Part shown: in pieces, positions 4,513-61,960 of the stretch | Numbering within the stretch: the stretch's first letter is position 1 | How the letters are laid out: the number at the start of each line of letters is the position of its first letter | Notes under the pieces: generated by a model | What the model saw: only the letters and a program-made list of their open reading frames with translations | The model's database searches: none | Told to the model about the DNA's origin: nothing | Source: Octopus vulgaris | Lineage: Eukaryota | NCBI GenBank assembly: GCA_951406725.2 | Contig: OX597823.1 | Location: 35,526,001 to 35,590,000, forward strand | Reading direction: 5' to 3' | DNA: 64,000 nt | Made by a program: the position numbers and the translations under genes

Positions 4513-4543
<31 letters not shown>

Positions 4544-4546
<3 letters not shown>

Positions 4547-5385
4547 TAGTTTTATTTTTATAGCGTGCTTTCACTTCACTACCGAGCACAGCTCTGTGTG
4601 CCTTGGGTATGTGCTGTGATTTGTTGTGATGCTCTGATGGTTATTGTATGGAAAGTGTTCTGCGTAGGATGTGTGCAGTGCCTAGTAGTGCAATTTTCTG
4701 TATGTTATATGTGTTTGTAAGTCCTGGTGTTTTTGTTATGTATTTGTCTGAATATTTTTTTATCATGCCTAATGCACCTACTATGATAGGAATTGTTTCT
4801 GTTTTCAGATTCCACATTCTAGTTACCTCTATTTCCAGGTCTTTGTATTTTGAGAGTTTCTCCATTTCTTTTAGAGACACGTTGTCATCAGCCGGTATTG
4901 ATACATCAATTAGAAAGCATTTTTTTCTTCATGATCTCTGACAACTATATCTAGTCTGTTGGCCTTAATTTATCTATCTGTGTGTATCGGCATATCCCAG
5001 AGTATGGTTGCTTTCTCGTTTTCTGTGACCTTTTCTGGTGTGTGCCTATACCATCTTTTTTCTGTTGTTATTCCATAATGTTGGCATAGCTTCCAATGTA
5101 TGTAGGTTCCAACTCTGTCATGTCTGTGAATATATTCCTTCTTAGCCAGGACTGGGCAGCTAGAGATAATATGATTTATTGTTTCTTGTCCATCTCCACA
5201 TATTCTGCAGTTACTTGTAATATTTCTTTTCATTACATGTTTTTGGTAATTTCTGGTGGGGAGGCTTTGGTCTTGTGCTGCAATTAAAAATCCCTCTGTC
5301 TCTGCTTTGAGTCCTGAGCTTCTCAACCATTGCTGGGATTTTTCTTTGTCTATTTCTTTTGCGTTTAGTTTAGTCCAGTATTTAC

Positions 5386-5387
<2 letters not shown>
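4544..5387 (-). mobile_element. 5'-truncated R4/Dong-type (REL) LINE 3' end, embedded in (TAA)n
   Basis: ETEGFLIAAQDQSL, zinc knuckle CRICGDGQETINHIISSC, RHD, ILWD.PI.TD, ANRLDIVV...IDVSIP...KEMEKLSKYKDL (REL endonuclease). Both flanks are (TAA)n tracts. Confidence 0.92.
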
Positions 5388-5455
<68 letters not shown>

Positions 5456-6040
5456 GAGTGAGAGAGCAGTGCATGTCATCAAAGTGACACTGGGGTAAAA
5501 TATACGAAGCCCAGTATACTCATCATGACTACCCGTCTGATAAGGGTACATCAGGCACATGCATCACAACCATATTTGCGCGACATGGTGATCTCATATC
5601 AAGATAAACAGCGCATGACCTTGTAGGTGGGGCCCAATTAGAATTTTCTTCTGGTCGAATAGCCCATTCCGCTCAAAACGTCCCCGAATAAGGATTGTTT
5701 AAGGATGATGAACGAAACACCCATATTTCCAAGGGTGAATTATCCAAACCCCAAAGAATTCCTCTCAGCATATGGCTATGATGCTCACCCACTACTTCAG
5801 CTCGTGATCAGAAATGCACATATCATCAGCCACCGGGTGACATGCTCAACTGGTTAAGGTCAAACAACTGACAAGCAAATCTGTGGTATTGAGAATAATA
5901 TTTGCTGTAGTCCATCTTTTATACCAAGACAAAACAATGTACATGGTAACACTTCCAATCAAGATCAGAAGCCATGATAGCCACTACCTGATACTGCATC
6001 AAGGCATGTGAGAGCCACTGCCTGGTGCTGCATCAGGGCA
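5456..6040 (-). mobile_element. Non-coding interspersed element bracketed by (TAA)n and (CAA)n tracts, possibly non-autonomous
   Basis: 585 bp of higher-GC non-coding sequence with sharp borders at trinucleotide microsatellites. A 30-bp unit is tandemly duplicated at one end (5970-6040). Strand inferred from the TAA tail. Confidence 0.5.
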
Positions 6041-7544: not shown

Positions 7545-7830
7545 CATAGACTGCAATGTTCGACTGAAACTTAATTTATCAATCCCCAAAAGTTGAAGTG
7601 CAAAGTCGACCCCGACATTTGGACTCAAAACGTAAAGTCGGAAGAAATGCCCCGGCGAGCTAACTACTCTGTTAGTTCGCCGCCTTTTACTATCTAAATA
7701 TTCCTTTCTACCAAAGGCCACAAGGCCAGAAATTATGGTAGAAGGGGCTAGTCGGTTAGATCGTCCCCAGTGCTTGAATGATACTTATTCACCTGGAATG
7801 GATGAAAGGCAAAGTCTACTTTGGCGGAAG
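7545..7830 (-). mobile_element. Two adjacent fragments of SINE family C
   Basis: Contain aaggcaaagtcgac...ttt.gactca.aacgtaa, shared with the copies at 15790, 18075, 51415 and 61775. Confidence 0.75.
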
Positions 7831-10254: not shown

Positions 10255-11776
10255 TTCCAGTGAAATACATTCACTAATTCCAAAAATAGAAATAAAACAG
10301 ATAGGGCAGGGATTCACCAAAGAAATAAATATGAAATTGGTTTAGAAAAATGTGTCAAAACAACCTTGAAAAGAGGAAAACTAGTTAAGGGTAGTAACAT
10401 CACACTTGATAAAGCAAATTAGATAAGAGAATTAACCCAAAGCCAGACATATAAATATTTAGGAATCAATGAACTAGATACGATGCAACACACACAAATG
10501 AAAGAGAAAATTAAAAAAATGAATACGATAGACGAGTTAGATTAATACTGAAAACAGTGCTCAATTGAAAAACATGATAGGTATCAACACTCTTGCCGTG
10601 CCAGTTATGAGTTACAGCAACAATATTCTAAACTGGACACTAAATGAAGTTACTAAAATAAACAGGAAAACAAGAAAAAAATAATGACAGGATCTAGGAC
10701 GTACCACGCAAAATCTGACATAGAAAGGTTATACATACAACGTATAGAAGGTGGTAGAGGCCTTATACAACTAGAAAACTATTAGAAATTAACCCCCATT
10801 GGACTGCAAAAAAAACTACTTCAGAAGCAAGGAAAACTAATACAAATAGTCACAAAATACGAACAAAACAAAAAACTGTTTTCAGTCTTTAAAAAAGCTG
10901 AGAAATACAAAGAAGTCATACTACCTAACAACTATGAAGAAGAAGAAGAAACAACAAAAGCTGTAAAACAAAGAAATCCAAACTAAAACTAGGACAGAAA
11001 CGAGCCATGATAAAACGATGGCAAGAAAAGCCCCTTCATGGCAAATACTGGGTTAAACTAAACGCAAAAGAAATAGACAAAGCAAAATCCCAGCAATGGC
11101 TGAGAAGTTCAGGACTGAAGGATTTTTAATTGCAGCACAAGACCAAAGCCTTCCCACCAGAAATTACCAAAAACATATAATGAAAAGAAGCATAACAAGT
11201 AACTACTGAATACGTGGAGATGGACAAGGAACAATAAATCATATTGTTTCTGGCTGCCCAGTCCTGGCTAAGAAGGAATTTATTCACAGACACGATAGGG
11301 TTCAGACCTACATACACTGGAAGCTACGCCGACACTATGGAATGACAACAGAAAAAAGTTGGTAGAAGCACACGCCAGTAAAGGTCACAGAAAATGAGAA
11401 AGCAACAATACTATGGGATATGCCTACCGACAGATGACAACGTTTCTCTAAAAGAAATATAGAAGCTTTCGAAACATAATTACCTGGATATAGAGGTATC
11501 TTGAATGTGGTGACTAAAAGCAAACAATTCCTATCATAGCGGATGCACTGGGCACGATAAAAAATATTCAGGCAAATACATAACAAAAACACCAGGACTA
11601 ACAAATATATATAACATACGGAAAATAGCACTACTAGGCACTGCGTGCATCTTACGTAAAATACTTTCAATACAGTAACCATAAGAGCATCACAGCAAAC
11701 CACAGCACATACCCAAGGCACATAGATCTGCGCTCGGAAGTGCAGTGAAAGCACGTTATAAAAATAAGTCTACTGA
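10255..11776 (+). mobile_element. R4/Dong-type (REL) LINE, 5'-truncated, same family as 4544-5387
   Basis: MKFGLEKC, YKYLGI, SDIERLY..R.EGGRGL, HGKYW, IAAQDQSL. The 3' UTR matches the 4544 copy and ends in (TAA)n. Many frameshifts. Confidence 0.92.
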
Positions 11777-11815
11777 ATAATAATAATGATTATGATGATG
11801 ATGATAGTGATGATG

Positions 11816-14316: not shown

Positions 14317-15789
14317 CATTATAAATTAGCATAATTATACTTCCAGAGACACAAATCCAAAAGAAATGAAAGCTTTTTTAAAATAAAAATCTTACAGTTT
14401 CAGTTTATATCACCTAAATTACAAATGCTTCTGTCTCTTTATGAACATCTTTATCTTATTGAAGAGATTACACATTCTCTCTTGCTTCAGTATACTTAGC
14501 AGAAAGGATTTAATTTTATATCTTATAGGCATGATAATTCCAGCTGACTGCTACGGTGTCTTGCAGAATATGATTTTATAATTCTTCTTGAAAACATTCT
14601 CTAGACTTACACACATGCATATGCTCCTGCACGGGTGCGTGTTTGCGTGCGCGCGTGTGTGAATACATATGCAAATGCACATTAATACGTGCTGGAGGCT
14701 GCTATAAGTTACATTGTGTGGGCATTTATAAGAGTTTATGACTGTAATTACACGTATGTGTGAGTGTATATATGTGTATAAATTGTGGTTAGTTTCACTG
14801 TATATGTTTATCTATTTCGCGCAGTTATACATAGATATCTGGATTAATGTTGAGATACGGACACATACACATATGTATGTTCAGACATACATGTGAATAT
14901 TCGTGACTGATTATGCAAGTTAGAATATACTCTTTGCATATGTATATTTCCTATATGCTTACACATACAACACAGATATGAGTGTATGAGTGTGTGTGTG
15001 TGTGTGTGTGTGTGTCTTTACGTGCATATATTTATGTATTTACACAAATATCTGATAAATGCATATATCAGATTAAGATTCATGTGTGTAATTACATGTG
15101 TGTGTATATATTATATGTGTGTGTGTTTTATGTTATAAATGCATATAATTACGCTATGTATGGATATGTGCAAGTGATGGATGGAGAGTTGTATGCATTT
15201 GTACATGTAAGCATGTATATATTCACATGTATAAGAGATGCTTTACGCAGTGTGCTGGACGATGAGAACGAGCCTGTATCACGTTGCCGTAAGGTGAACA
15301 TCTTAACACAAACATGCTTTCGATCAAGTAATTAATTATGTTAGGGAGCTGTTTCCCATTTAGATGTGGTGGCTATGTTTAATGGGAAATATTTTTTAGA
15401 ATCATTTAATATCAATGCAATTTTTAGTTGGGATGGTATTGTGTTAGCTTGTTTATTGATATTATTAAGTTTGTATCATCATATGTTGTATGCATAGATA
15501 TCACTTACAATGGTAATCTGTTAATATTTAGCTAAAATAATTGAAGCGTGCAATCTGCTGGAACTGTGGATGAAGTGAGTGATGGAATATACAAAATCAC
15601 TGCCTACAGACACATATATGTAAACATACATACATAGAGGGAGAAGAAGAGAGAGAGAGAGACAAGGAGTGGGGAGAGGAGAAAGAGAAGGAAGGAACCA
15701 GAAAGCGAGAGAGAAGGAGAGAGGAAGGAAGAGAGAAAGAGAGAAGAAGGGAGAGAGATGTGCGTAGTTGTATTGATATACTGATAAGT

Positions 15790-15928
15790 CGGCGAGCGGG
15801 CAGAAACGTTAGCACGCCGTGCGAAATGCTTAGCGGTTTTTCGTCTGCCGTTACGTTCTGAGTTCAAATTCCGCCGAGGTCGACTTTGCCTTTCATCCTT
15901 TCGGGTCGATTAAATAAGTACCAGTTAC
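15790..15928 (+). mobile_element. SINE family C, 5' part
   Basis: ggcgagc.ggcagaaacgttagcacg...gagttcaaattcc (B box) then gaggtcgactttgcctttcatcctttcgggtcgattaaataagtacca. Confidence 0.85.
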
Positions 15929-15949
15929 AGCTGCTAATCACGTGTTGTA

Positions 15950-17900
15950 TCTTCCACAGAAATATGACATAATCTACATTTTCGGTTACATCCTAAAACT
16001 CTAAGTAATCCACTGTCTTTTTGTTTATTAGGTATTTTGTAGCAATCTCCTTTTCTTGGATAGCAAATGTATTGCCTTCGAAGTGTAACGTAATATAGAG
16101 CTCACGAGTTCAAGAGACTGCGCTTCGTGTTGATATTACTGTTATATTCAAGTCTTCGAGAAACATACCAGTGAATAATCGTTTTTTGGTATGCTTAGTA
16201 TCTCATGTCACTTTTGAAGTATATTAGTCCATCTATTTCGGGGTTGTATGGGAATTCGTTATGAAGAAAGTACTTCCCGAGAAGCTCACTGCCAGCACAT
16301 AGAATGTTCTTCTGTTCGCTTGTTTATAAGCACTAGGCGTATAAACTTATTTTCGCTGCTGTTCTTTAGAATGTGCTGTTTGAGAGATATTCGAAGGTTG
16401 TCTACACTGATCTCAAACCTCTACCTCCTTGGTCTCCTCTTAAGTAGAGACTGTCGATATCACTGTTTCTGAGGAAGTTTCCAGTTGATGTCAGTATTCT
16501 TGCGGGTTTTAATGCCTATGGAGTGGATTTATTCTACTGACCAATCAAATATTCTAAATGTTGGCATCCGCGTTGGTACTGAAAATGCATTGTGTGATGT
16601 TGAGGAGAGCTCCGACTACCATTTTTTAAAAGGTTGGTGTAATATTCTCGGTGCTTGTAGCATCCTTTGTATGGAAAAGGAGTGATAGGAAGACTACTAA
16701 TTCACAGATCTTCGGTCTGCTTTCAACAAATAGGAATATTTCTTTTGGCCAAATTCCATTACTATGTCAGCTGGAAATGTTATTAACTCTAGCTGTTTCT
16801 TGGCATTGTCAAAATTTTTAACATGTCTTCAGGTCATCCTTAAAAAAACCTGTGGGTTACTTTAATAGCTATAACAGTTGCCGAGCTGATCCTAGCATGT
16901 GGCCATTTAATTTTTTGTAGCAGAAATAATACTGGATTTAATGCCAAAATGAACTGTAGTGCAAAAGACTATCTCCATGAAATACTCTTTTTGAAATATT
17001 TATAACATAGTAGACGATCATTTCGCTCATAGTTGTAAGAATAAGATCTGTTGCTCAGGTCTTTGCGAGACTGTCAATGGCACCAACTAATAGCAGGCAA
17101 ATTTGCCAACTGTAAATATTTTAGCAACCATGACTTGGGAATAGGGTCGAATGTCTTCCTATGATCAAACCATACTGTTACAGAGCTTCTGCAGTGTTTT
17201 CTAATTCCTGAAAGTACGGCTTTGTTTTACAAATGTTAGTCGGTACATCTCTAGACTCCATTTTTCCACCTGTCTGCTCATCAACCATAATGTTGTTGGG
17301 CACACAATGGTCCTGAAGGAATTAGTTGAGGAAATGTATGCAGAGTTTGTACATAATGTTTAGGCAAGCAATGGATTTTAGTTTTCTCGGTGGATTCATT
17401 TGTAATCATAACATTTGTTCCTGCTTTAGTAAGTGAATTTCGTATGTCAATCTGACTTTCCATAGTTCTTTTGAAAATACATTTTAATGATTTTCTGTAA
17501 TATGTCAGCCTCTTTTTACCAACATCCAACTATTAGGTATTTTTCAATTGCTTTCCCATTAAGCAGTTTTCTAACTATAGTGAAAGTTTCCGGGTCAATT
17601 GCATATATTTATTAATGATATTGGTGCAGTAGTCTTTCCTAACTGTCTTTTACCATGATGCATTAAAACTGAAATCCCTCTTTTCATTCCAGATTTTAGA
17701 CTAGAATGATTCTAGGTCTTCTTGAGATGGAGATTTCTTAACAGTCGGCTCATTCCATATGAAATCACCTTATGGCCCCATCAGATCTACATTAACACCC
17801 TCTTGGATTTCTGTTGAACCAAAAAGATACGAAGTTTGATGTGCACATTTTTATACCCAGAGAAAGGATTTTGTCTTTATACATATCAATGGTTAAAATT
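15950..17900 (-). mobile_element. Old R4/NeSL-like (REL-group) LINE reverse transcriptase fragment
   Basis: Minus strand gives DHRKTFDPIPKSWL (DYKKAFDSV.HSW), GDSL, THRFFKDDLKT (YMDDLK), DIVMEFGQKK and DIDSLYL...GGRGL. Heavily mutated, boundaries approximate. Confidence 0.8.
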
Positions 17901-18074
17901 TACATAAACAAAATCATTTAATTTTGATTCGGTTAAAGAAACTTTATTTGGAGTTCAAGAAACTGCATCCAGAATAAAAAAAAATTGGATTCAGCAAGTT
18001 CTGTGAACTGTAACGAAACTAATGCCTTATAGTGAATAATAATGGTATTAAAATCTGTGCAGGTATTATTATTA

Positions 18075-18235
18075 AGGAAGCGGCGAACTGACAGAATCGT
18101 TTGCATGGCAGACAAAATACTTTGCGGCATTTCGTCCGTCTTCACGTTCTGAGTTCAAATTTCGACGAGGTCGACATTGCCTTTCATCTTTTCAGGGTCG
18201 ATAAAATAATTACTAGTTGAACACTGAAGTCGAAA
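18075..18235 (+). mobile_element. SINE family C copy
   Basis: gcggcgaactgacagaatcgtt...gagttcaaatt...gaggtcgac.ttgcctttcatc. Confidence 0.82.
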
Positions 18236-18800
18236 ATGTTGGTTTGTACCAAATTATTATTATTGTTGTTGAATCAATTCTGAGCGTGCACCTGTAAACA
18301 AAAGGAGAAGGACTCTTGCCCTGTTGTTCAGGCGCCCATGACTTTGTGGGTTTTTTCACGAGGTCCTTAATACGCCTCCTCTATTGGGAGTTTTAAATAG
18401 TTTAATTTTTAACCGTTATATTTACTGTTTACACGTTGTAAAACCCATTGTATCGTCCTGTTTTTGTCTTTTATGTTGTTGTATGTCTCTTAATGTAATT
18501 TTATGTAAGCCCTTGTGGTTACTAACCGAATAAATTATTGTTGTTGTTGTTGTTTATCGACAAGACCAGACGTATCGCGAACCCTCCATGAGTTATTGAC
18601 TAGTTTCATACGTTATATTTTTGTTTCCTTTTTTGTTGTAATTTGCCTTAAAGGGCGAAATTTCGAAAAGAAAATATTTCTTCTCGAAATATTGAAAAAA
18701 ACTATTATGGCGTATTCATCGCCTAAACATAGAGAAGGTGGGGTGGTTTTCTAGCTGAAATTGTCTTTCACAGTCAATTCCCCTGGCTAATTTATCAAAC

Positions 18801-19130
18801 ATGGAAAAAGGTAGTAGCAGGAGAATCAACAGCAAAGATAAAAGCAGCAACTACAACAAAAATATTAACACTGCAAACATCTACATAAACAAAAGACAAA
18901 AAACAGATGAAAACAACAGCACCACTTCTATCTTCAACGCCGACCAAAGCAACAATAACAACAAAGAAGAAAAACAGGAAAAAAAGACAAATTTTTCACA
19001 CATCACACGTACATATTCAACCAACGCCGACACATTCGCTAAAAACGACAAAGACCACAAATCGAGCATTATCGTTTTCGATGCTGCATTGCGTCAACGC
19101 TGCAAAACAAGTATAAAGCTATCAATATAA
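18801..19130 (+). CDS. Candidate low-complexity (N/K/S-rich) coding exon or ORF of unknown function
   Basis: 109-aa ORF not built from a microsatellite. Start context caaacATGG. An acceptor-like ttgtctttcacAG ends at 18773. No recognisable domain. Confidence 0.2.
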   Translation: MEKGSSRRINSKDKSSNYNKNINTANIYINKRQKTDENNSTTSIFNADQSNNNNKEEKQEKKTNFSHITRTYSTNADTFAKNDKDHKSSIIVFDAALRQRCKTSIKLSI

Positions 19131-21364
19131 ATATAAAAAAATATAAAGCTGTCAATATAAATATTAAAAATAAATAAAGCTCTTAATAGATGATTTAAAA
19201 ATTTAAGAGAGATGTTAAAATGAAATGGAAGAAGAGCTACTCTTCGAAGCTACTGTTGAAAAAAGGTTAGGATAAAATAGTCTTAAACTAGAACAGGTGA
19301 CACAACGACAAAATGAAGAGTGTCTAAGACCAGTATGGTACACGAATACATATGTTGCAAATGGGAAGATGACACTACAGAAGTGCATGTAAGCATATGT
19401 GAAAGCGCCTAACATCGTCAACTAAATTATTTTAATGGAGTCTACGACAAGCAATGCCTGCCTTTTCAGTATTAGTTTCGCAGTGTTTGTGTTTAGGAGG
19501 TCTATATATGAGATATCGTTGATTCCAGTGAAACAATAATGTAATCAAATCTTTTAAAGATTTAACGGTCCTAGCACTACATTCATCTAGAAAAATATTC
19601 ATTTTTCTTTTTATATTAACTATTAAAACCAAAAGTAAGTATATTTTTATTTTTGGTTTCTGCAAATATTGCTTCTTTCTTTTCTGCAAACTGCTTAGAT
19701 ATTTATGTTTGTTGCCGTCTTGGCTAAACGAACCAATGTCTATAAAACTAAATTAGTTACTCAAAATGAAATGTAATAGAAATACGTTTACACATTCAGT
19801 TTTAGCTGTTTTAAAATACGTTTACGAATTCATTTTGTATTTTCAAATTCATTTACATAAGGATGACCTGCGTAAACTACATTTAAAAACTTTTGCTGCA
19901 GTCTTCTTTTGTCTGGAACTCACCGCTTCCTAAGCGACACAAAGCTCCTAAAATTCCATAACATATGCAATCTAATGTTACCAAGTCAATACGCTTTCTA
20001 TTGATTTTTTTATCGATATTAGTAAATTGAATTATCTTTGGCCAAGATTACAATCGAGTTGCAATCATTTATAGCTGGCAGATTATCTTTCACTCCACAG
20101 TATTGTTAATTTTTTAAAATTATTTTAGAGCAGAGTGTAAGATAAGTTACGCGAATAATTTTCATAATAGGTTTGTCATTGTTGAGAGAAATTTCCAGCT
20201 GTAATTTAAAATCATGGGTCCGTTCACATTTTCATTTGGATTAAATCTTATAATCTCGTCGGAAACAATCGACGTGAAAATGATAATCACAATAAACATC
20301 GACTATTGTTCGGTATTGATTATGATTATCTGAAGCACATCAAAAAGAGAATTAATGATTACTTCCAATGGTACAGACCAAAAATTCATTGGCGTGGATT
20401 ATTGTCAAGTGAACTGAACATTGTAAAAATAATTGGTACCGATTCTATCAGCCTTGGCTACTCTGCAGAGCTTTGTAGCAAGAAGATTGAAGTATTTTCT
20501 ATTATCAGTTCAAGCATTCGCACGTCTAGCATTCCTCTAATCATGGAAACAAATACTAATTGGCAATCGTTATATTCTTTCTAATCCAGTACTAAAACTA
20601 TCTTCCATGCTTTGAAATTTAATTAAATTCTCTGCTCATTTGTTTCAACTTTCATATTGTTTTAAGGTGGTCTTATTGAGGCCTCGACAAATCCACCTTA
20701 GACTGATGCCATCATGCCGATTATAAGAAATATTTAATAATTTAATAATTAATAGCTAAAGATCAGTATTAATAACAACAGGCTATCTTTATATCCAACT
20801 TAAGTGGACGTTGTTTAGAAGCGAGATTACTGCGTTTTTTGCCTTGCGATGTCCTCTCATATCGACTTGTGGTGCATAAAAGTATTCTTTGTCAGGGAGA
20901 TAGCTACCATTCGTCTTCCACCGAGAAGCCCAGACAAGGCGAAATCACGAGGTCTGGCATTTCTGGGGGCCGTATTGTGAGAGGTCTTCTCAAAGTAAAT
21001 AATGCAGTATTCTGTTTTGGAATGTGTGAAGTATAGTGTTAGATAACATAGAGACTCTTTTGGCTGACATTTCGTAGATGCTCACTTTGTAATAATTTAT
21101 TACAGAGACACAAGATTTCAAGTTTGGATGGAAGAAACAGTCGAAGAAACTAACTCAAGACTTAGCTGGCATTTATATTGTTTAACACGAATGACCAAAA
21201 GATTAAAGTGATTTCGGTGGGATTCGAACACATAATGTAAACGCACGTAACTAAAATCTGACCCCTGGTATTTCGATCATTTCTCTATTGATCCTGCGTC
21301 GCTGATTTAGTATTAAAAATAATGCTTGAATATGCCTGATGATTACACTGCGGTGTACTGATTA

Positions 21365-23769
21365 AACTGGGGAACACATATTTTATTGAATGATATTTGA
21401 CACTTGATTCTAAATAATTTGGGTGCACTAAATACGAATATTTTAACTCAGTTTGGCTCTATCAGATCCTGATTCTTGTCAACAGCCTATGTGCAGTTTT
21501 CCAGATTTTTCAAATTGGGACTAAAAAATTAAGTCATGTGTTCAAATTTATTTTCAAGTTTCATGGCTACAAGCAGTTCAAACTACTGAAAAGTTACATT
21601 GTAACGATAGAAATGACTTAAAATAAAGAGATATGAAGCTTTCACTCTGGCAAAAAATTTCTTTTATGATACTTACTTGTGTATTTACTTGTTGATAACA
21701 GGTCTCTTTTCAAGCATCAACAGTAATCAGACTTCATATGGTAATCCCACCGTCCTTAGTACTGTTCCGGCTAATTTTGATATCTTGGTGGAATCTCTCC
21801 CCTTGTTCGTCACTTCCAGCACCTAAATTACTTGGAAATTGGAAATGTATTTTTACAATTTCTTCTTAGTTATCTGCTCCATAATTACCTAAAACGTTTT
21901 CTATCAAGTCCACGTATCAGAACCAGGCATGTTTTGTGTTCATTCATGAGATTAGGAAAATCGCAGTCTTTAATTAATGTTCTTATTTGTGGACCGTCGA
22001 AAATTCCTGCCTTGATTTTTTCATAACTTAAACTTGGAACTTGCTGTTCGTATCTAAAACATTTATATATTGTTTAATGGGGCTGGGTTGATATGTAGGG
22101 GAGGAAATATGATTTTATCTTTGGTCACTAAAGGTTGATTAATTAGGTTTTTTTTCTCCGATAGTAAATGACGTTCATACTAGCCAGACTTCATTGAAAT
22201 AATGTTCTTTGGCTCTACTGTCTTATAAGTAATGGAAGCAGGGATATTTGATATACCCTGCTTGTTGTCATAGCAGAGAATTAACCATTTTAAAGTCAAT
22301 TCCTATGACCTACTCGCGCTTCCTATGTTTGATAAAATTTTAAAACTTTTCTATATGTTCGTACATACATTTAAGACTTCTTTAGCAGTGTCTAAAACAA
22401 GAGCCAGTCATTTGCATCGTAAAACTCAACCCCTGTCTCGCAGGTGTCTCGCAGCAATATATTTAGCCCTCCTCTGTTCTAAAATATTTAAGAAGTTCTC
22501 TTTTTCTCTAAAATGTAATGTATGTATATGAAGTAAGCAAACTTTTCTCTCTAATTCTTGAAGCTAAAATTTCCGCAGCCTTTTTTTTTTAGGCAAATTT
22601 AGATCCCTTACAAGATCATTCAACTCGGCCTGGTTAAACTTTTGCGGATCATTTTGACTTTCAAATACGCTGGGGTCAAAATCAACGTCAGACTCCTCAG
22701 AGTGCAATATTTTTTGGAACATCTTCAACTACTTCTTGAAGTGGCAGACTATTAAATATTGGAATGGGAAATTCATTCGAATGTAGAACAGGCAGTATCA
22801 CGGTGTCGAAATTTGGGTACTCGATTCAATGTTTATTTTTCTTAATGAAGCCCGAAATCTTGACAAAGCAAAAGTAGCAATCTTTCTCATGATTGGTAAG
22901 TTCACCCCACGCCTATATGAAAACAAATGTATAAAAAGGTCATTTTTGACATAAAGAAAAAAACCGCTTTCGTAACGCAATTGTTACGTTCAACTGACTT
23001 CCATTAGACATTAAATTCACCTTCCTGATTTCTATTCAAAGTTAGTCAAACGTACTTGTACATGAGTACATGGATAATAATGCACAGAGCAGAACGTGTC
23101 AGGCGCTTGTATGTCGGCGTTTGAAAAAGCGTTAACAAAAGCGACGAGAGACTAACTTGTTTTTATGAATTTTATCAAAAGTTATCACCCAAAGATTTTA
23201 CATTTCTATGTGCTCCAACCTATATAATGCATAGCATTATTTTAAATTCTTATAAATATTTTTCTGTAAATTTTTGTTTATATACCTAAGTTACAATTAG
23301 ATTTAGGTAAGTTACTAGTGGCTAAAGTACGTAGTTTTATGAAGTCATAAACTTACCATCGGAACTTCAAAAGGTATTTATAAATCCGAACCCTTCGTCC
23401 AATGTCGCAATATAGTGCAGGTTTTATGTAGAGCCCACGAATATTCTTGGTCGCCCAGTTTTATGCCAAAATATGCTAAATAAGCTCTTTTTAAGAAGTC
23501 ATTTATATTTCCTCGTTGATGTGTAAGTGTAAAATTTCCACATTATAACAAAAGGAATCAGGTGGGTTTTTTTTTGCATTTCAACTTCCTTGTGATTGAT
23601 GACATTGAGTGATTGTTCTACCAAACTGTTAAGGTATCGTAAAGGTATCAAAATCAAGACCTGATAGAGCAAAACCGAGTAAAAGTTCGTGCTAATTGCA
23701 CCCAAATTACCTAGAACTGACTCTCAAATCTTATTTAATAGACAAAAAGTTGAAATTTGTTCGCCAGTG
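21365..23769 (-). mobile_element. Full-length decayed Chapaev3-like DNA transposon
   Basis: Transposase remnants PQKFNQAELNDLVRDLNL, QQAGYIKYPCF..DSR, KIKAGIFDGPQIR, SDEQGERFHQDI. Imperfect TIRs of about 115 bp (aactggggaaca.../...tgttcgccagtg, sharing tgcacccaaatta and ctgatagagc). TTA flanks both ends. Family name is from motif recall. Confidence 0.8.
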
Positions 23770-24667
23770 TTACACTTTGTAATAATATAATGACGATGAT
23801 AACACACTGATAAAACATTGACTGCATTGTCTGACATCAAGCTTTGCTTGACTGTTTGATTTCTTTTTAAATTACTGATAATTATGAATGACCTGAATAA
23901 TCTCTTAGTTGTAGTTACTAATTTAATGATTAATTTGTTTGTTAATTTGTTTTGTTCTTTCACCCCAATTGAACCACGAAATAAATACAAAAATTTACTT
24001 GATATATATATAAACTGAGTTCAATAATTTAAATGTTAGTAGTTCAGGAAGGTACAAAATAAAAATTCTTAGTGATTTGAACTTTATTCCTTATTTGGTA
24101 AAAATGAATGAAAAATGTAACAACAATTGTGAGCGACACTGAAAGGGAAGGGAAATAATCTGAAAATAAATAAGATTCAATTTGCCAGAATCTCAAATCT
24201 TTGATAATTGACCCGGTGATAGTATTGGACCTGTTTACATATTAAAATTCATAAACGCAAGGTAGTAGCTATTAGTTTGGAATCCTCCAAAAATGTGAAA
24301 AATATTTTTGACACACAGTCAACTCTCGAGCCTTGTCTCCATCCGTGTCATTCTAGGAAGTTCATGAAGATCAGGTACAAATTATTTTCAATTTAGTTTT
24401 GTGTTTATTTATTTATTTGGTAAATATTAGTCCATTCTGGACAGAAACAGGGATCAAAGCATCATGAGGGTCCGAAAACAATATTTCCTTCATTTTGCTT
24501 ATTTTTTTTTCCATTTTGAAACTAATAGTTGTTGACCAGAATTTCTCCAGGAATTGTAAATATATTTCTGACTCAATAATTGCACGCCTAAATCCTTGCA
24601 AATATGAATACAATATATTTTCAACTTAGCAAGCTAATGTCATGACATGTGCGCAGAAGTGTGTGCA

Positions 24668-24715
24668 AGAGAGAGAGGGAGAGAGAGAGAAAGAGAGAGA
24701 ACGAGAAGGAAGAGC

Positions 24716-24781
<66 letters not shown>

Positions 24782-24835
24782 ACGAGAAGGAAGAGCGAAA
24801 GAGAGAGAAAGAGAGAGAGAACGAGAAGGAAGAGC

Positions 24836-24899
<64 letters not shown>

Positions 24900-24900
24900 A
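24668..24900. repeat. (AG)n array with three embedded copies of gaacgagaaggaagagcgaaa
   Basis: Direct reading. Source of the ERER pseudo-ORFs. Confidence 0.97.
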
Positions 24901-25029
24901 ACTAATATTAAATTTTCTTTAGGGATAATCTCTCTGCAAATATAAACAACTTTAAAAAGCTTTATTTAGTGCTATAAATAAGGTTACTTAAATATGTAAG
25001 TAAAGCTACTTAATTGGGTTTTCGTAATG

Positions 25030-28662: not shown

Positions 28663-29056
28663 AAGTAGCATGCTTACCAACCAAATGGTTCTGGGTTCAG
28701 TCCCACTGCGTGACACCTTGGACATGTGCCTTCTACCATAGCCTTGGGCCGCTCAAAGCCCTGTTTGTGAATTTAGTAGACAGAATCTGAAAGAAGCCCG
28801 TCGTATATACGTATATGTATATATATATGTGTATGTGTTTGTGTGTCTGTGTTTGTCCCCCAACATCGCTTGACAACCGGTGCTGGTGTGTTTATGTCGA
28901 CGTACCTTAGCGGTTCGGCAAAATACACCGATAGAATAAGTACTAGGCTTCCAAAGAATAAGTCCTGGGTTCGATTTGCTCGACAAAAGGCGGTGCTCCA
29001 GCATGGACGCAGTCAAATGATTGAAAGAAGTAAAAGAGTAAAAGAGAGTAAAAGAG
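28663..29056 (+). mobile_element. SINE family A copy
   Basis: Aligns by eye to the 1986-2345 and 33189-33652 copies. Tail (gagtaaaa)n. Confidence 0.88.
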
Positions 29057-29065
29057 TTCTTCATG

Positions 29066-29840
29066 TCCTCATAGTTCACCACTAGAGCGCTGGGTTCGAA
29101 ATTTACCTCGGGCCCCAGTGGGTTTATATCTGATGGGTAAGCCTCTTTTAACTTCCTATACTTATCTTTTTCCATTAAAATCCATCTCGTCTCCTTATAG
29201 CAACCCTCCGAAAGGTCCACTTTAACAATGTCTTTCATTTTAGTTATTTTCCTTTCTATTTTTTGTGTCGACCAATAAATTATCAGATATATTCTGTTCG
29301 TTCCTGTGTACCTCTTGCGTCTGTTTGTCTGTTCTTTTTTGTTTTTGTGACTTTGCTATGATGTGTCTCTTCTTGTATATGAAAGATATTGTTAAAGTGG
29401 AACTCTCGGAGGGTTACGATAAGGAGACAAGATGGATTTTAATGGAAAAAGATAAGTATAGAAAGTTAAAAGAGGCTTTCCCATCCGATATAAACCCACT
29501 GGGGCCCGGGGTGAATTTCGATCCCAGCGCTCCAGTGGTGAACTATGAGGAAATTAAGAACTATATAAAATGGTAAGTAAAGTACTATTTTGAAAATAAC
29601 TGTTGAAATAATTTTGAAAAGAACTGTAGAAATAATTTTGAAAACACTTTAAAGATTGTTAAAATAAGTTTGAAAAGAACTGTTGAAATTATTGAAATAA
29701 CGTAACCACCCCGGAGCGGGGCTGGGGTGGCCGTTCCATCTTCATTGCATAATTTCACTATTCCATTCTTTCATGTGTTGATTGTCCCCGCATGAGTGTA
29801 TTGTCCCATCTGTGTTTAGTTCCTTGTGGGTAATAAATAA
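29066..29840. mobile_element. Retroelement-like 3' end containing a 173-bp inverted duplication of coding-like sequence
   Basis: 29066-29238 is the reverse complement of 29379-29551 (13 differences). Followed by about 24-bp tandem repeats (29588-29700) and ccttgtgggtaataaataaa, a tail similar to 18510-18535. Confidence 0.6.
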
Positions 29841-33652: not shown

Positions 33653-34045
33653 TATATATATATATATATATATAAACATCATTCTTTTATACAAATTTGG
33701 CCCTGACGAGGCTTGAGACCGCTGCAGTGATAGAGACTAGAAAGAGGAAAAAGAAGGGAACTCCAAATCCAAAAGAATATCATAAACTAGAGGACAAATA
33801 GCATTAAAATTATGACGAACAAGAAGCTCATCAGAGAAATGTTACGCTAGGGAAGAAAAGCGGGTGACATATTTAAATGCTTTGACAGAGGTTACAAAAC
33901 CAGAAAGTTCATCACAGCAATGACCATAGAAATTCTTCTAGAAAAGGTACATATATATTACAGTTCTATATTTAAGAGATGAGGAATTATGTATATTATT
34001 TACATTATTTACATTTGACGGATATTTGTCCTCATCTTTGTTGTT

Positions 34046-34091
34046 AACACAACATTTCGGCTGATACACCCTCCAGCCTTCATCAGATGTC
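34046..34091 (-). ncRNA. Minimal type I hammerhead ribozyme in PLE 3' region
   Basis: gacat CTGATGA a ggctg gagggtgtat cagcc GAAA tg TT gtgtt. Stem I gacat/gtgtt, perfect stem II ggctg/cagcc, stem III reduced (tg is likely decayed cg, which the 61 kb copy has). Confidence 0.7.
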
Positions 34092-34151
34092 TTGGGAAAA
34101 CTTCGAACCTGCGTTCTCATTGCTAAGGTATTTTTCAATATTATTATTATT

Positions 34152-34218
34152 TGCCTGAAATCGGACTCGGAATCTTGGGGTTAGTAGCCCACGCTCTTAA
34201 CCACTACACTATCTGCCC
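34152..34218 (-). promoter_or_regulatory. tRNA-Ser-like segment with Pol III A and B boxes inside the PLE 3' UTR
   Basis: gggcagaTAGTGTAGTGGttaagagcgtgggCTACTAAccccaagattccGAGTCCGATTTCaggc. A box, a CT-ACT-AA loop resembling tRNA-Ser(GCT) ggactgctaatcca, and a B box (gaattcgattcc in the 61 kb copy). Confidence 0.7.
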
Positions 34219-36596
34219 GTGGGCAATTATGGAGTGAATTTTAGGGCTTAGAAATCTAATATTTTCCTATCGTTTCTTATTACCTGTTCCCATATGCTAT
34301 TTATATCTGTACTAGGTCTGCTTAGTACGTTGTTGTGTCCTAGTATAAGTGCTGCTTCTTTTAGTTTTCGTATTTTCCTGTGGTGTTCTTTATTTCAACT
34401 TCATCCCACAGGAGGAGGTGGTCGTCATATGGGCCGCCATCTTTTGTATCTTTTCGGAGAGGCCTTTCAGATAGGGTAGACAAACTGTGGACAGTTTATT
34501 GGTTTCATCCGCTCTTTTCTTCATAATTGGAGTAGATAGTATGTTTTGGGGGTAGATGTTGCTTAATAGATTGTTACTGAGCTTGATCATTTCTTCGTGG
34601 TGTGTATCACGATCGCTACTTATATTCTTCGCTCGATGTTTTTGGCTCTGAGCAATCCCTCTCTTTACACTGTATGGATGGTGAGAATTGAAGTTGAGGT
34701 ATCGTCCAGTGAAGGTCGGCTTGCGATATACGGATGTCCTGAATCCATACTTGGTGCTTGTTATTAATACGTCCAGGAATGCTAGCTGATTGTCTTTTTC
34801 CTTTTCCATTGTGAACTGTATGGGTGGCTTTATTGAGTTTATATGATCTAACGGCATTTGGACATCTTCCTGGTGGAGCCAGAGTATAAATGTGTCATCA
34901 ACGTATCGCAGCCATTGGGTTGGTTTTAGTGGTGTTGATCCTAAAGCCAAATTCTCCAAGTATTCCATGCATATATTGGCTATTATCGGTGATAATGGCA
35001 AACCCATAGCTGAACCCTCTTTTGTCGATATATATTAGTGTCCATACTGAAGTAGGTAGCTTCTACACAGATTAACATTTCCATTAGGTTTCTTATTGGT
35101 ATACTAGTGCGTTCTTTTAGACGGGTGTCTATCACTAGTTTTTCTTGCATCATCGATAGTGCTTCACTAGTTGGGACTTTGGTGAACAGACTTATCACAT
35201 CTAGAATCACCATCTGGTTGGATTAAATGAGGGTATCCTTGATCAATTCTGTGAAGTGGGTAGAATTCTTCACGTATGATGTTGACTTTCCTTCTAATTG
35301 ACAAGAAAGCGGCTCAGTGGATGACATGCTGAACTTCTACAGCTCACTATATGTCTTTATGGAATACCATCCTTAAGGAGACCGTACATGTGTGGTAGTT
35401 TACTGTAGTGTTGACTTAGTTGTCTGTACTTTATTGGTGTAAAGGGATCCTTGTTCTTGATCAAGATCTGTTACAACTTCCTCTCTGCTTTCAGAGTTGG
35501 GTCGTTCTTTACTTTGCTGTAGCTAACATCACTTATAAGACTTGCCAATTTTTCCGAGTAGTCAGACCTGTTCATCACTACTGTAGCATTTTCTTTGTCC
35601 GCTGGAAGTATTATGATGTAATTATCACTCTGTAGTCTTTTGATAGCGACCTTTTCTTCCTTAGTGATGTTTGGTTTGGGAAGTTTCGCTTTTTCTAGTA
35701 CCTGTCTCACTTTCCACCTTAGTTCATGTCCCTGAGCTTTTGGCATCTTTATGGCTATCACTTCAATAGGGGGTTTATGTCCAATTATGGAATGCACTTG
35801 ATGGTTGTTGCAAAGCTGAGACCATTGTTTAGTACCGCTTTTTCAGATCTTTCTAGATGTCGGCTACTTACATTAATTACTGCTTTCACAGGTGGGTGAC
35901 GGACTTCAGTTTTCATTCTCTGACCTTTGAGTTTCATAGACTTCTTAATCTGGCGTGTCTTCACCATTTCAAATTCTTTCATGTGCGACTTTTCTAGATA
36001 TTGCTGGATTCTCTTTCTATCATTATCTCTGGATATTTTCCTAAGTGATGAAGACAACCTCTCTTTGATTTCGTTGTTTAGTTGATGTTTTTTTCTAACG
36101 ATTGTAATGGATCCTCTCACGGACGAGATCATATCCTGCCCTTTCCGCTACTCTTCTATCTTTATATGAATCCACTGGTGTCATTATATTCAAGCCAGGT
36201 GGTATTAGCTTTGAGTCTCTACATCTACACAGGAAAGTTAGAAATATTAAATATTTCTTCAGACCTGCTACTACCTATACACCGAGTCTTCACAAAAGTA
36301 AAAGAGAAAGAGAGAAAAAAAGAGAGAGAGAGAGCGAGACAGACAGACAGACAGACAGACAGAAAAAGCGAATATGTCCCAAGTATTTGAAAACTATGGA
36401 AATATTTTTAAAAAAGCATTTCATTTAATTTTTCCACAATTTAATTATTTTTCATGCTTTACTCTAAGTTGAAAAAGTCGTAAAGATTGAAACCGGTATT
36501 AAAATATTCTTCACGATAAAACTATTTTAGCATTTTCTACCTTCTCCTATTTTCCTTATACATATCAATTTGTGTCTTACTTTCCAACCTTCTACA

Positions 36597-40253: not shown

Positions 40254-40303
<50 letters not shown>

Positions 40304-40308
<5 letters not shown>

Positions 40309-40767
40309 TACAGGACACCACAGATAAACGTAGAACACAATGAGAGACGAGAACATAAAATCAAACAAGGAAACGGACTTTTTTTAAACATCGAAAAAAC
40401 AGGGTACAGGACAAACAATACAAGGAAAATTCCCCTTCATCAGCTGTCCCTAGTTCGACTCAAAGTGTGTTTCGAAGGTAAGGACAGAACACAGTCGAAG
40501 CAGTCCTTCAAAATTCTTTTGCAGGGGGGTCCCTGTGCAAAATAATTTTATTTAATTCCTTTTGCAGGAAGGACTGCTTCGACTGTGTTCTGTCCTTACC
40601 TTCGAAACACACTTTGAGTCGAACCAGCGACAGCTGATTAAGGGGAATTTTCCTTGTATTGTTTGTCCTGTACTCTGTTTTTCGTTGTTTAAAAAAAGTC
40701 CGTTTCCTTGTTTGATTTTATGTTCTCGTCTCTCATTGTGTTCTACGTTTATTTGTGGTGTCCTGTA

Positions 40768-40772
<5 letters not shown>
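40304..40772. mobile_element. Fold-back element (about 205-bp inverted arms) inserted in (TA)n
   Basis: 40304-40509 is a high-identity reverse complement of 40568-40772. Both outer ends abut (TA)n. Related to the 42405-43240 element (gtacaggaca, gaga.acgagaacataaaa, ttcccttcatcag). Confidence 0.85.
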
Positions 40773-40816
<44 letters not shown>

Positions 40817-42404: not shown

Positions 42405-43235
42405 ATCATATAATAATATAAATAATATATAAATATATGCATATATATACATACATATATGTACATTTGAGTCTGTGACGCCCTTCGGTTGCGACACTAA
42501 TCATGGGATTGCACCTAGAAAGTTACCCTCCCAGGGACAAGTCCGGGCAAGATTGTTTGTGGAAGACCAGCAGTCGCCCATGCATACTAGACTTATATCT
42601 CCACGCCACCAGTGTTATTCAAGGGAAAGGCCGATACAGCTTGCCACCTGTGACGTCGCAACTCATTTCTAAAGCTGAGTGAACTGGAGCAACGTGAAAT
42701 AAAGTATCTTGCTCAAGAACACAACACGCAGCCCGGGTCCGGGATTCGAGCTCACATCCTCACGATCTAACCACTCGACGTTCTAACCACTGAGCCATGC
42801 GCCTATATATGTACATACCTACATATATATGTATATATACATGCGTATATGGGTACAGGACATCAAAAACACATAGGCAAAATGAGAAACGAGAACATAA
42901 AAAACAAAAACATAGGAAACCAACTTTTTTCGAACAACGAAAGAAACAAACTAAAAGAGAAACGAGACGGGCAACATAAAGAACATTCCCTTCATCAGTC
43001 GTCCCCTGTTTTATCTACTCCGCGTGCTGCCAGTCTCGTTTCTCTGTTTGTTTCTTTTGCTGTTCGGAAAAAAGTTCGTTTCTATGTTTTTGTTTTTTTT
43101 ATGTCTCGTTTCTCATTTTGCCTACGTTGTTTTTTGATGTCCTGTATCCATATATGCATGTATATATACACATATATGTAGGTATGTACATATATGTATG
43201 TATATATGCATATGTTTATATATTATTTATATTAT

Positions 43236-61355: not shown

Positions 61356-61433
61356 CATCTGCCGTCGTGGTTAAGAACCCGGGCTACTAACCTCAAGATT
61401 CCGAATTCGATTCCAGGCAGTGACCTGAATAAC

Positions 61434-61491
<58 letters not shown>

Positions 61492-61674
61492 GCAACATCA
61501 AAAACACCTTAGGAATGAGAACCCAGGTTCGAAATTTCCGCAAAACATCTGATGAAGGCTGGAGGGTATATCAGCCGAAACGTGTCAACAACAAACAAGG
61601 TGAGGACAAATATTCGTCAATTGTAAATAATGTAAATAATGTACATAATTCCTCATCTCTTAAATATAGAACTG
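61356..61674 (+). mobile_element. Stand-alone tRNA-head + (AAT)n + hammerhead unit (solo PLE terminal repeat or SINE-like element)
   Basis: Colinear with 33961-34218 (-) and ends at the same base (aaatatagaactg). Contains CTGATGA a ggctg..cagcc GAAA cg at 61549-61582. No PLE coding sequence upstream. Confidence 0.88.
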
Positions 61675-61774: not shown

Positions 61775-61960
61775 TTCAAATTTTGGCACAGTCACAAATT
61801 TTGAGGAGATGGTAAGTCTATTATATTGAGCCACAGTGTTCAACTGATACTTATTTTATCAACTCCGAAAGGTTGAAAGGCAAAATCGACCTCGGCAGCA
61901 TTTGATTTCAGAACGTGAATTTGGAAGAAATGCTGCTGAGAATTTTCTCAAGTGTGTTAA
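61775..61960 (-). mobile_element. Degenerate SINE family C copy
   Basis: tgaaaggcaaaatcgacctcggcagcatttgatttcagaacgt. Confidence 0.75.

What the first reader, a model, noticed from the sequence alone, without database searches (positions are those of the whole stretch)
61356..61674. Same tRNA-head/hammerhead unit standing alone: candidate SINE mobilised by Penelope machinery
Seen: the unit recurs 27 kb away with no PLE coding sequence, begins within the tRNA-like head and ends at the same base as the PLE-linked copy. It has no poly(A) tail or evident TSD. Its first bases, catctgcc (61356-61363), are the reverse complement of the head start ggcagat, a 5' micro-inversion. Established: SINEs normally borrow LINE 3' tails, while 5' inversions are typical of PLE insertions. 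Inference: a non-autonomous, ribozyme-bearing SINE-like family that depends on a PLE RT/GIY-YIG enzyme.
Basis: partly seen in the sequence, partly recalled or inferred. Interest (0 to 1): 0.85.

Follow-up and report, generated by a model that had tools for sequence, protein, structure and literature searches.

The report
Penelope end repeat with tRNA head
This 300-base stretch is a decayed, free-standing copy of the end repeat of a Penelope-type jumping gene; the repeat begins with a tRNA-derived sequence where most short copies stop, likely because the element's own RNA starts there, so the copies look like a SINE but are probably by-products of the parent element rather than a separate family.

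Summary
The unit is real, but it is the pseudo-LTR (pLTR) of a Penelope-like element (PLE), present at both ends of full-length copies. The genome holds 4,741 exact copies of its last 23 bases. Copies show PLE signatures: an inverted arm lacking a 25-45 nt tail, and 8-15 bp TSDs in 53 of 81.

An independent SINE is not supported. Stand-alone and ORF-linked units share subfamily variants and divergence (5.0% vs 4.7%). Stand-alone copies often end in TATTA, the bases following the pLTR at the pLTR-ORF junction, so their template was junction RNA. Best model: the PLE enzyme primes at the junction and runs off the RNA's 5' end at the head.

The new part is the tRNA-derived A/B-box head at the pLTR start, with no conserved TTTT in the 2.3-kb body. 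Pol III transcription is plausible but untested. This copy is decayed (boxes mutated, ribozyme triplet deleted), and its micro-inversion is ambiguous. The scan noted this family before, elsewhere in this genome and in another genome.

The parts
61356..61429 (+). tRNA-derived head of the stand-alone pLTR copy, starting at about head position +4 (tRNA position 1 = +1)
   Evidence: a family head aligns collinearly with genomic tRNAs, best tRNA-Arg among 35 distinct tRNA sequences tested
61356..61363 (.). first 8 bases: either a short inverted copy of the head start (7/8) or the mutated head read straight on (6/8); undecided
61360..61370 (+). A-box position, two changes from the family A box
61405..61414 (+). 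B-box position, G53 changed to A in this copy
61430..61490 (+). (TAA/AAT)n microsatellite between head and core, of variable length in the family
61543..61586 (+). minimal type I hammerhead motif; helix II intact, cleavage triplet deleted in this copy
   Evidence: family pattern with intact core 3,921 times, 0 in reversed control
61641..61674 (+). approximate PLE 'tail' (last 25-45 nt, absent from inverted arms) and fixed 3' end
33961..34218 (-). same unit as the 3' pLTR of the PLE copy in the window
34219..36242 (-). decayed PLE body: 5'-truncated, with stops and frameshifts and a deletion of about 240 bp in the endonuclease region
34390..35034 (-). longest open RT fragment of that PLE copy
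   Evidence: Pfam RVT_1, E 7e-07

Best explanation
The unit is the pseudo-LTR of an abundant Penelope-like element whose pLTR begins with a tRNA-derived A/B-box head, and the stand-alone copies are likely short cDNAs made from the element's own RNA, which likely starts at that head. Shown: full-length copies read head-(TAA)n-hammerhead-tail-TATTATC...ORF(RT, endonuclease)-head-...-tail; stand-alone copies match the ORF-linked ones in variants and age; they sit in TSDs, often as head-to-head pairs; their 5' ends pile up at -7..+3; their 3' ends often carry a few junction bases. Inferred: (1) Transcription starts at about -7..+1, probably by Pol III from the A/B boxes, with a TATA-like motif about 30 nt upstream that overlaps the ORF stop. 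(2) The PLE protein nicks both target strands 8-15 bp apart and primes internally at the pLTR-ORF junction, at the tail end on one strand and 25-45 nt upstream on the other, as shown in vitro for Anolis PAc (PMC11167929). (3) On a linear RNA the cDNAs run off after at most about 300 nt and are joined head to head, giving stand-alone units. On tandem or ribozyme-circularised RNA, priming at a later junction copies the ORF. (4) Stand-alone copies lose both the upstream motif and the downstream ORF start, so they would be dead ends rather than masters. The copy at 61356 is one such decayed product.
For: Unit follows the ORF end in PLE copies and precedes the ORF start; L323 has a complete head at its 5' end. 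Exact 23-mer counts: 3' end 4,741, head +3..+25 2,007, upstream -30..-8 707, pLTR-ORF junction 96; all reversed controls 0. In 90 position-ordered loci from C1, 39 of 59 arms at risk stop at -8..+8 (0.041/nt against about 0.004/nt in the core and 0.002/nt in the body). In 30 head-anchored loci, 26 stop at -7..+3 (two of the 30 look like duplicates). Only 8 of 43 arms starting at -16..+8 are head-to-head fold-back compatible; 26 join another part of the element. TSD of 8 bp or more in 53 of 81 loci with one inverted arm, permuted mean 1.2. Inverted arms end at core 144-164 in 76 of 81, direct arms at 188. 16 of 90 loci continue with 5 or more bases of TATTATC against 0.34 expected. In 27 of 41 TSD loci with extra bases before the downstream TSD copy, these match that junction and are absent from the upstream copy. 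ORF-containing insertions show it too (10 of 14 with 2 or more bases). Subfamily 64A/133G occurs in 21 of 158 stand-alone and 3 of 27 3'-linked units; divergence 5.0% vs 4.7%, P 0.53. The family A and B boxes fit the consensus at tRNA positions 8 and 53 while the stems have decayed. No 10-nt bin of the 2,334-nt body has TTTT in 15% or more of copies. TTTATAA is kept upstream of the head in 18 of 19 linked copies.
Against: No direct evidence for a transcript starting at the head: three RNA runs of a related organism give equal depth for both mate directions, 69-73% of laid reads run on into unrelated sequence, and no read-start peak lies at the head. The TTTT deficit is weak: expected 2.8 (dinucleotide shuffle) to 4.5 (mononucleotide shuffle) per body; it is not significant in any of 8 single natural ORFs against synonymous shuffles, two of which carry 2-3 TTTT; several relatives without a head are also low. 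AT-rich target preference could add to the TATTA signal. A 14-nt imperfect hairpin spans the head start and blurs junction calls by about 7 nt. This copy itself has no TSD, no TATTA and no clear inverted arm. 20 of 30 junction loci hold only 35-440 nt of ORF start followed by another unit; these could act as non-autonomous masters that my tests cannot see.
Confidence: 0.68

Rival explanations
1. Independent PLE-mobilised SINE: one or more non-coding masters, either a solo unit or a unit plus a short piece of ORF start, are transcribed by Pol III and copied in trans by the PLE protein.
For: 5' peak at tRNA position 1. About 50 unit ends per pLTR-ORF junction. 20 of 30 junction loci are short unit-ORF start-unit structures that could be masters. 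The 9-nt repeat number differs somewhat between classes (about 11-14% vs 31-36% short form, P 0.004-0.02 uncorrected). PLEs can mobilise sequence in trans through pLTRs (PMC3846280), and non-autonomous PLE derivatives are described (MRC1, PMC8557442).
Against: No diagnostic site, same haplotypes, same age. Junction bases at the 3' ends. The one junction shared by two loci (L193, L194) occurs only twice in the genome, so no amplified master was found. The head was not found on a different, non-PLE body in 30 head-anchored loci (one, L237, breaks off after about 28 nt).
Confidence: 0.15
2. No transcription start at the head: on long templates the cDNA stalls or folds back at the imperfect hairpin around -14..+10, making a structural hot spot. 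The tRNA head is a captured fossil and the element is Pol II transcribed.
For: The hairpin exists. Perfect head-to-head junctions occur, including in 413-542 RNA reads per run. Palindromes at pLTR 5' ends and self-priming are proposed for Adineta PLEs (PMC3846280). D. virilis Penelope has a LINE-like internal promoter in its pLTR (PMC2377424).
Against: Only 8 of 43 arms are fold-back compatible. Five independent loci join a head starting at about -6..+13 to an ORF-start piece in direct orientation. Stops centre on the loop and 5' arm, not at the hairpin's 3' base near +10, where a stall would be expected.
Confidence: 0.13
3. Ordinary 5' truncation of the PLE, with no special role for the head.
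For: Arms stop at a steady rate of about 0.004/nt across the core. This copy has no special feature.
Against: 39 of 59 stop within 16 nt where about 4 are expected (binomial P 5e-31). Genome-wide 23-mer counts drop from 2,007 to 707 across the head start.
Confidence: 0.04

Closest known systems
Penelope/Poseidon-clade PLEs: Anolis PAc (PMC11167929, parts 1-2 of 4 read), Adineta Pen2a (PMC3846280, passages), D. virilis Penelope (PMC2377424, passages)
   Same: Single RT-then-endonuclease ORF, pLTRs with a minimal hammerhead, inverted 5' arm, 30-40 nt one-sided tail, 8-10 bp TSDs, solo pLTRs, promoter in the pLTR, internal RT initiation at the pLTR-ORF junction, hammerhead cleavage not needed for insertion.
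   Different: Here the pLTR starts with a tRNA-derived A/B-box head. The described promoters are LINE-like internal (Drosophila) or TATA/Inr-like (Adineta). Short units outnumber pLTR-ORF junctions about 50 to 1.
Schistosome Sm-alpha / Sj-alpha SINE-like repeats (known to me through the review PMC6765202, passages; the original paper was not held)
   Same: Pol III-type promoter followed by a hammerhead in a short non-coding repeat.
   Different: Those are often tandem and have no identified coding parent in the passages read. Here the unit is the terminal repeat of a coding PLE, is dispersed and has a minimal hammerhead.
TRIMp3 elements Cassandra, Helenus, Ajax (PMC10886601, passages)
   Same: A small-RNA-derived Pol III promoter inside a terminal repeat, with solo repeats in excess.
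   Different: They are non-autonomous LTR elements with PBS and PPT, and that paper expects autonomous partners to use Pol II. Here the head is in the repeat of the coding element itself, which is a PLE.
tRNA-derived SINEs (SINE2)
   Same: tRNA head with A and B boxes at position 1, about 300 nt, many thousands of copies, TSDs.
   Different: No LINE-derived 3' tail or poly(A)/simple-repeat end, no Pol III terminator in the unit, head-to-head insertion, and no separate master lineage found.
Metazoan non-LTR retrozymes (PMC7761336, passages)
   Same: Short hammerhead-bearing non-coding repeats proposed to use PLE enzymes.
   Different: Retrozymes are tandem, described as promoterless and give circular RNAs. 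These units are single or inverted and carry a promoter-like head; circles were not tested.

Membership tests
Endonuclease-bearing PLE (Penelope/Poseidon type) | RT followed by a C-terminal GIY-YIG endonuclease in one ORF | tested here: met
   P0001 (569 aa, natural copy L040) hits RVT_1 and aligns end to end at 40% with P0070, which carries the precomputed PF01541 domain; a direct GIY-YIG hit is only weak (1 of 16 members, E 0.23)
Endonuclease-bearing PLE (Penelope/Poseidon type) | pLTRs at both ends, in direct or inverted orientation | tested here: met
Endonuclease-bearing PLE (Penelope/Poseidon type) | Optional 30-40 nt tail on one arm | tested here: met
   76 of 81 inverted arms end 24-44 nt short of the direct end
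Endonuclease-bearing PLE (Penelope/Poseidon type) | Minimal type I hammerhead in the pLTR | tested here: met
   motif and helix II present, 3,921 genomic copies with intact core, layout as in PMC4209133; no Rfam hit; cleavage not tested; broken in this copy
Endonuclease-bearing PLE (Penelope/Poseidon type) | Phylogenetic placement in the Penelope/Poseidon clade | not tested
   no tree built; assignment rests on domain order and recalled motifs (DKG; no extra linker zinc finger seen by eye)
tRNA-derived SINE | tRNA-derived head with A and B boxes | tested here: met
   (score 64 vs shuffled top 51 of 300); boxes; ARAGORN and Rfam negative
tRNA-derived SINE | 5' ends concentrated at the head start | tested here: met
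tRNA-derived SINE | Own master lineage, distinct from the partner element | tested here: not met
   no diagnostic site and same haplotypes and age in 174 vs 39 units; no amplified master junction; sample only, not genome-wide
tRNA-derived SINE | LINE-derived 3' end or poly(A)/simple-repeat tail | tested here: not met
   3' end is the PLE tail
tRNA-derived SINE | Transcribed by Pol III | tested here: inconclusive
   indirect only; RNA reads uninformative
Non-LTR retrozyme | Tandem hammerhead-delimited repeats giving circular RNA | tested here: inconclusive
   tandem forms are rare (about 2 of 90 loci continue into the ORF start and another unit; L191 is a short array); circles not testable with the reads laid

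The most novel reading that the evidence does not exclude
An autonomous, protein-coding Penelope-like retrotransposon transcribed from end to end by RNA polymerase III from a captured tRNA promoter in its pLTR, with no terminator in its 2.3-kb body. It sheds more than ten thousand SINE-like dead-end copies as its default product. A distant PLE (L245, 38% identical) may have made the same capture independently, which would make Pol III-driven PLEs a recurring class and a route by which SINE-like families arise without a LINE.
Probability: 0.3. Interest if true: 0.85.

Novelty: new variant of a known kind. Interest (0 to 1): 0.6.

Why it matters
Pol III promoters are described in non-autonomous elements (SINEs, TRIMp3), and PMC10886601 expects coding partners to need Pol II. 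A coding retroelement led by a tRNA promoter would break that expectation and raise the question of how such an RNA is translated. Separately, the family gives thousands of natural products with a marked template start. These support in vivo the internal-initiation model so far shown in vitro for one PLE: junction bases are copied at the 3' end, and run-off occurs at a fixed 5' point. That makes the open steps of the PLE cycle (template form, two-strand priming, role of the hammerhead) directly testable. It also warns that some repeats annotated as tRNA SINEs may be PLE end repeats.

Tried and rejected
Rfam at gathering and E-value thresholds and ARAGORN: no tRNA or hammerhead call; one search used a copy with deletions and is uninformative. 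Folding of head and hammerhead: no stability beyond shuffles, z from -1.7 to +1.6. A shared junction in L193/L194 as a possible non-autonomous master: 2 copies only. Local derivation of the 61-kb copy from the 34-kb copy: each has 10 differences from the family majority and about one is shared. Hammerhead cleavage as the source of 5' ends: no excess in the core bin 80-109 (9 of 72). TTTT depletion against synonymous shuffles: not significant in single ORFs. No RNA holder listed as such; raw RNA reads of a related organism showed no start peak. Viral contigs: no relative; prokaryote genome contigs: 3 loci, no use. Sequence look-up of earlier notes returned an unrelated hit. Literature: 8 searches found no description of a tRNA-headed pLTR or a PLE-mobilised tRNA SINE. 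Repbase and Dfam could not be searched, and the classical octopus SINE papers (OK, OR1, OR2; recalled, not seen) were not compared, so the family may already have a library entry. No supplements were read; those of PMC13282606 and PMC4209133 could list this family. DNA around the closest protein relatives (55-68% identical) could not be fetched, so the age of the head capture is open.

Full report
Observation. The unit at 61356-61674(+) is real. It matches 34204-33961(-) in two blocks at 87%, split by a (TAA)n run, and both copies end at the same base. The window lies in a 2.8-Gb genome, G000:C10:35526001-35590000. The 34-kb copy ends a decayed ORF with an RT hit and a deletion of about 240 bp in the endonuclease region. 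The micro-inversion is undecided: the base that makes the match perfect is private to the 34-kb copy (0 of 39 heads), and against the family the 8 bases fit 7/8 inverted or 6/8 straight on. This copy has no TSD, a hammerhead lacking its cleavage triplet and mutated A and B boxes.

What the unit is. Among 29 other loci found with the RT region, those whose 3' part is intact run from the endonuclease straight into the unit (the output was cut, so I give no count). Loci found with the ORF start are often preceded by all or part of the same unit, followed by TATTATC and the ATG. L323 is full length with a complete head at its 5' end; L328, L331, L334 and L337 span the body. A natural 569-aa ORF aligns end to end with PLE-type proteins. 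The unit is therefore the pLTR. A family head aligns collinearly with genomic tRNAs, best with tRNA-Arg among 35 distinct sequences from the 30 loci fetched (score 64, shuffled top 51 of 300); most isotypes were not in that set. Head +1 corresponds to tRNA position 1. The boxes fit the consensus while the stems have decayed. Rfam and ARAGORN do not call it.

Numbers. Exact 23-mers: 3' end 4,741, head 2,007, just upstream of the head 707, pLTR-ORF junction 96, intact hammerhead core 3,921; all reversed controls 0. At 5-7% divergence this implies roughly 15,000-25,000 tail-bearing copies (an estimate). I analysed 90 of the first 100 listed 3'-end hits on C1, taken in position order; the other ten were not fetched. 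Arms stop at about 0.004/nt through the core, but 39 of 59 arms at risk stop at -8..+8, and 7 more at -24..-9, where a near-palindrome blurs the call (P 5e-31). In a second sample anchored on the head, 26 of 30 stop at -7..+3 and 4 continue into the ORF end.

Insertion signature. In 81 loci with one inverted arm (62 from the position-ordered sample, 19 from the best-hit set), 53 have a TSD of 8 bp or more, mostly 8-15 (permuted mean 1.2), and 76 inverted arms end 24-44 nt short of the direct end. The three bases before the TSD lean to AAC (32, 33 and 24 of 53). Inverted pLTR, one-sided tail and 8-10 bp TSDs are described for PLEs (PMC3846280, PMC8557442; passages).

Independent SINE or by-product. 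Three results favour by-product. First, 174 stand-alone and 39 ORF-linked cores have no fixed difference; the subfamily markers at 64 and 133 have like frequencies; divergence is 5.0% against 4.7%. The strongest difference is a 9-nt repeat number (P 0.004, uncorrected over 188 sites). 'Stand-alone' includes arms whose ORF may lie beyond the fetched flank. Second, copies continue past the fixed end with bases of the pLTR-ORF junction: 16 of 90 with five or more against 0.34 expected, and in 27 of 41 TSD loci with extra bases these match the junction and are missing from the upstream TSD copy; 14 do not match. ORF-containing insertions show the same. The template therefore continued into the ORF start, which stand-alone copies lack. 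This fits PMC11167929 (parts 1-2 of 4 read), where PAc needs ORF sequence beyond its two internal start sites and does not need hammerhead cleavage. Third, no amplified master was found: 20 of 30 junction loci have a short ORF start followed by another unit, nearly all at different points, and the one shared junction has two copies. These short forms could still serve as masters without leaving a trace, so the SINE reading keeps about 0.15.

Why the stop at the head. A hairpin spans -14..+10, and palindromic pLTR starts with self-priming are proposed for Adineta PLEs (PMC3846280). But only 8 of 43 arms starting at -16..+8 are head-to-head (one locus counted twice); 26 join the core, mid-head or body, and 9 meet flank or microsatellite. 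Five independent loci join the head to an ORF-start piece in direct orientation. Run-off at an RNA 5' end explains these best. Pol III is the natural source: intact boxes, ends at -7..+1, TTTATAA about 30 nt upstream in 18 of 19 linked copies (it overlaps the ORF stop and may be coincidence), and no conserved TTTT in 2,334 nt covered by 20-47 alignments per sampled position. The last point is weak: 2.8-4.5 are expected by shuffles, single ORFs are not significant against synonymous shuffles, and 20 related ORFs range from 0 to 13 per kb, median 3.2. RNA reads from three runs of a related organism look like passive read-through and show no start peak. D. virilis Penelope uses a LINE-like internal promoter in its pLTR (PMC2377424, passages), so a Pol II start at the same place is possible.

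A possible parallel. Of 20 hammerhead-marked pLTRs among related loci, only L245 has an A/B-box pair at tRNA spacing. It is a tandem PLE at 38% identity with 2 TTTT in a 901-codon frame and one more in a splice-acceptor-like site before the ATG. Its tRNA likeness is borderline: score 51, shuffled top 53 of 300. It is a lead only.

Comparison and novelty. It works like a SINE in product and like a PLE in mechanism. It passes the PLE tests I ran and fails two SINE tests (own lineage, LINE-type tail). Closest analogues for the promoter are TRIMp3 elements (PMC10886601, passages) and schistosome alpha repeats (through PMC6765202, passages). Minimal hammerheads in pLTRs are known (PMC4209133, passages); retrozymes are proposed PLE passengers (PMC7761336, passages). 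PMC13282606 (part 1 of 3 and passages) and PMC6962438 (passages) do not describe this family in the text seen. Eight searches found no tRNA-headed pLTR in print; repeat libraries were not searchable. My reading was set before I looked at earlier notes. The scan has noted this family several times in this genome and apparently in another, with readings split between pLTR and SINE; these notes are not independent support. Verdict: new variant of a known kind, interest 0.6. The locus itself is a dead, unremarkable copy; the interest lies in the family.

Noticed in passing
L245:1975-2185 and 4766-4975: Distant tandem PLE (38% aa) with a borderline tRNA-like A/B-box head, an AAT run and a hammerhead in both pLTRs; the only such case among 20 related pLTRs.
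   Followed up: partly
L019, L021, L022, L187, L213 (next to the microsatellite): Other elements sit in the unit's (TAA)n run. Several look like 3' ends of restriction-endonuclease LINEs (R4/Dong type, recalled, not tested); L187 has a 387-aa open frame there. Other SINE-like repeats also insert there (L231, L232).
   Followed up: no
42 two-armed loci of L061-L180: The two arms never disagree T against A at subfamily site 64 (25 T/T, 7 A/A) but disagree G against A at 133 in 5 loci; shared private variants 15 against 7.3 between loci, permutation maximum 16. Fits one template, or subfamilies active at different times.
   Followed up: partly
core positions 97-103 in the position-ordered sample: Seven direct arms start just 3' of the predicted hammerhead cut (after position 95), about three times background, but a GTTAAC palindrome and microhomology with the head could explain it.
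   Followed up: partly
L039, L328; window 34247-34254: TATA-like motif about 30 nt upstream of the head overlaps the ORF stop codon; kept in 18 of 19 linked copies, changed in the window's 34-kb copy.
   Followed up: partly
window 40260-40816, 42805-43195, 29055-29562, 4517-5388 with 11038-11802: Other inverted-repeat pairs and palindromes in the window, up to 97% identical over 250 bp.
   Followed up: no
window 4970-5563 (-): ORF fragment with a zf-RVT hit (E 1.9e-06), a piece of another retroelement.
   Followed up: no
window 61815-61949: A different repeat family 140 bp downstream of the unit, with copies at 7554, 15853, 18111 and 51453.
   Followed up: no
L323:5430 in runs X21-X23: 413-542 RNA reads per run continue from the head start into an inverted head, so head-to-head pairs are transcribed and would form long hairpins in host RNA.
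   Followed up: no
L191: Short tandem array of unit plus 81 nt of ORF start, three repeats, retrozyme-like in layout.
   Followed up: no
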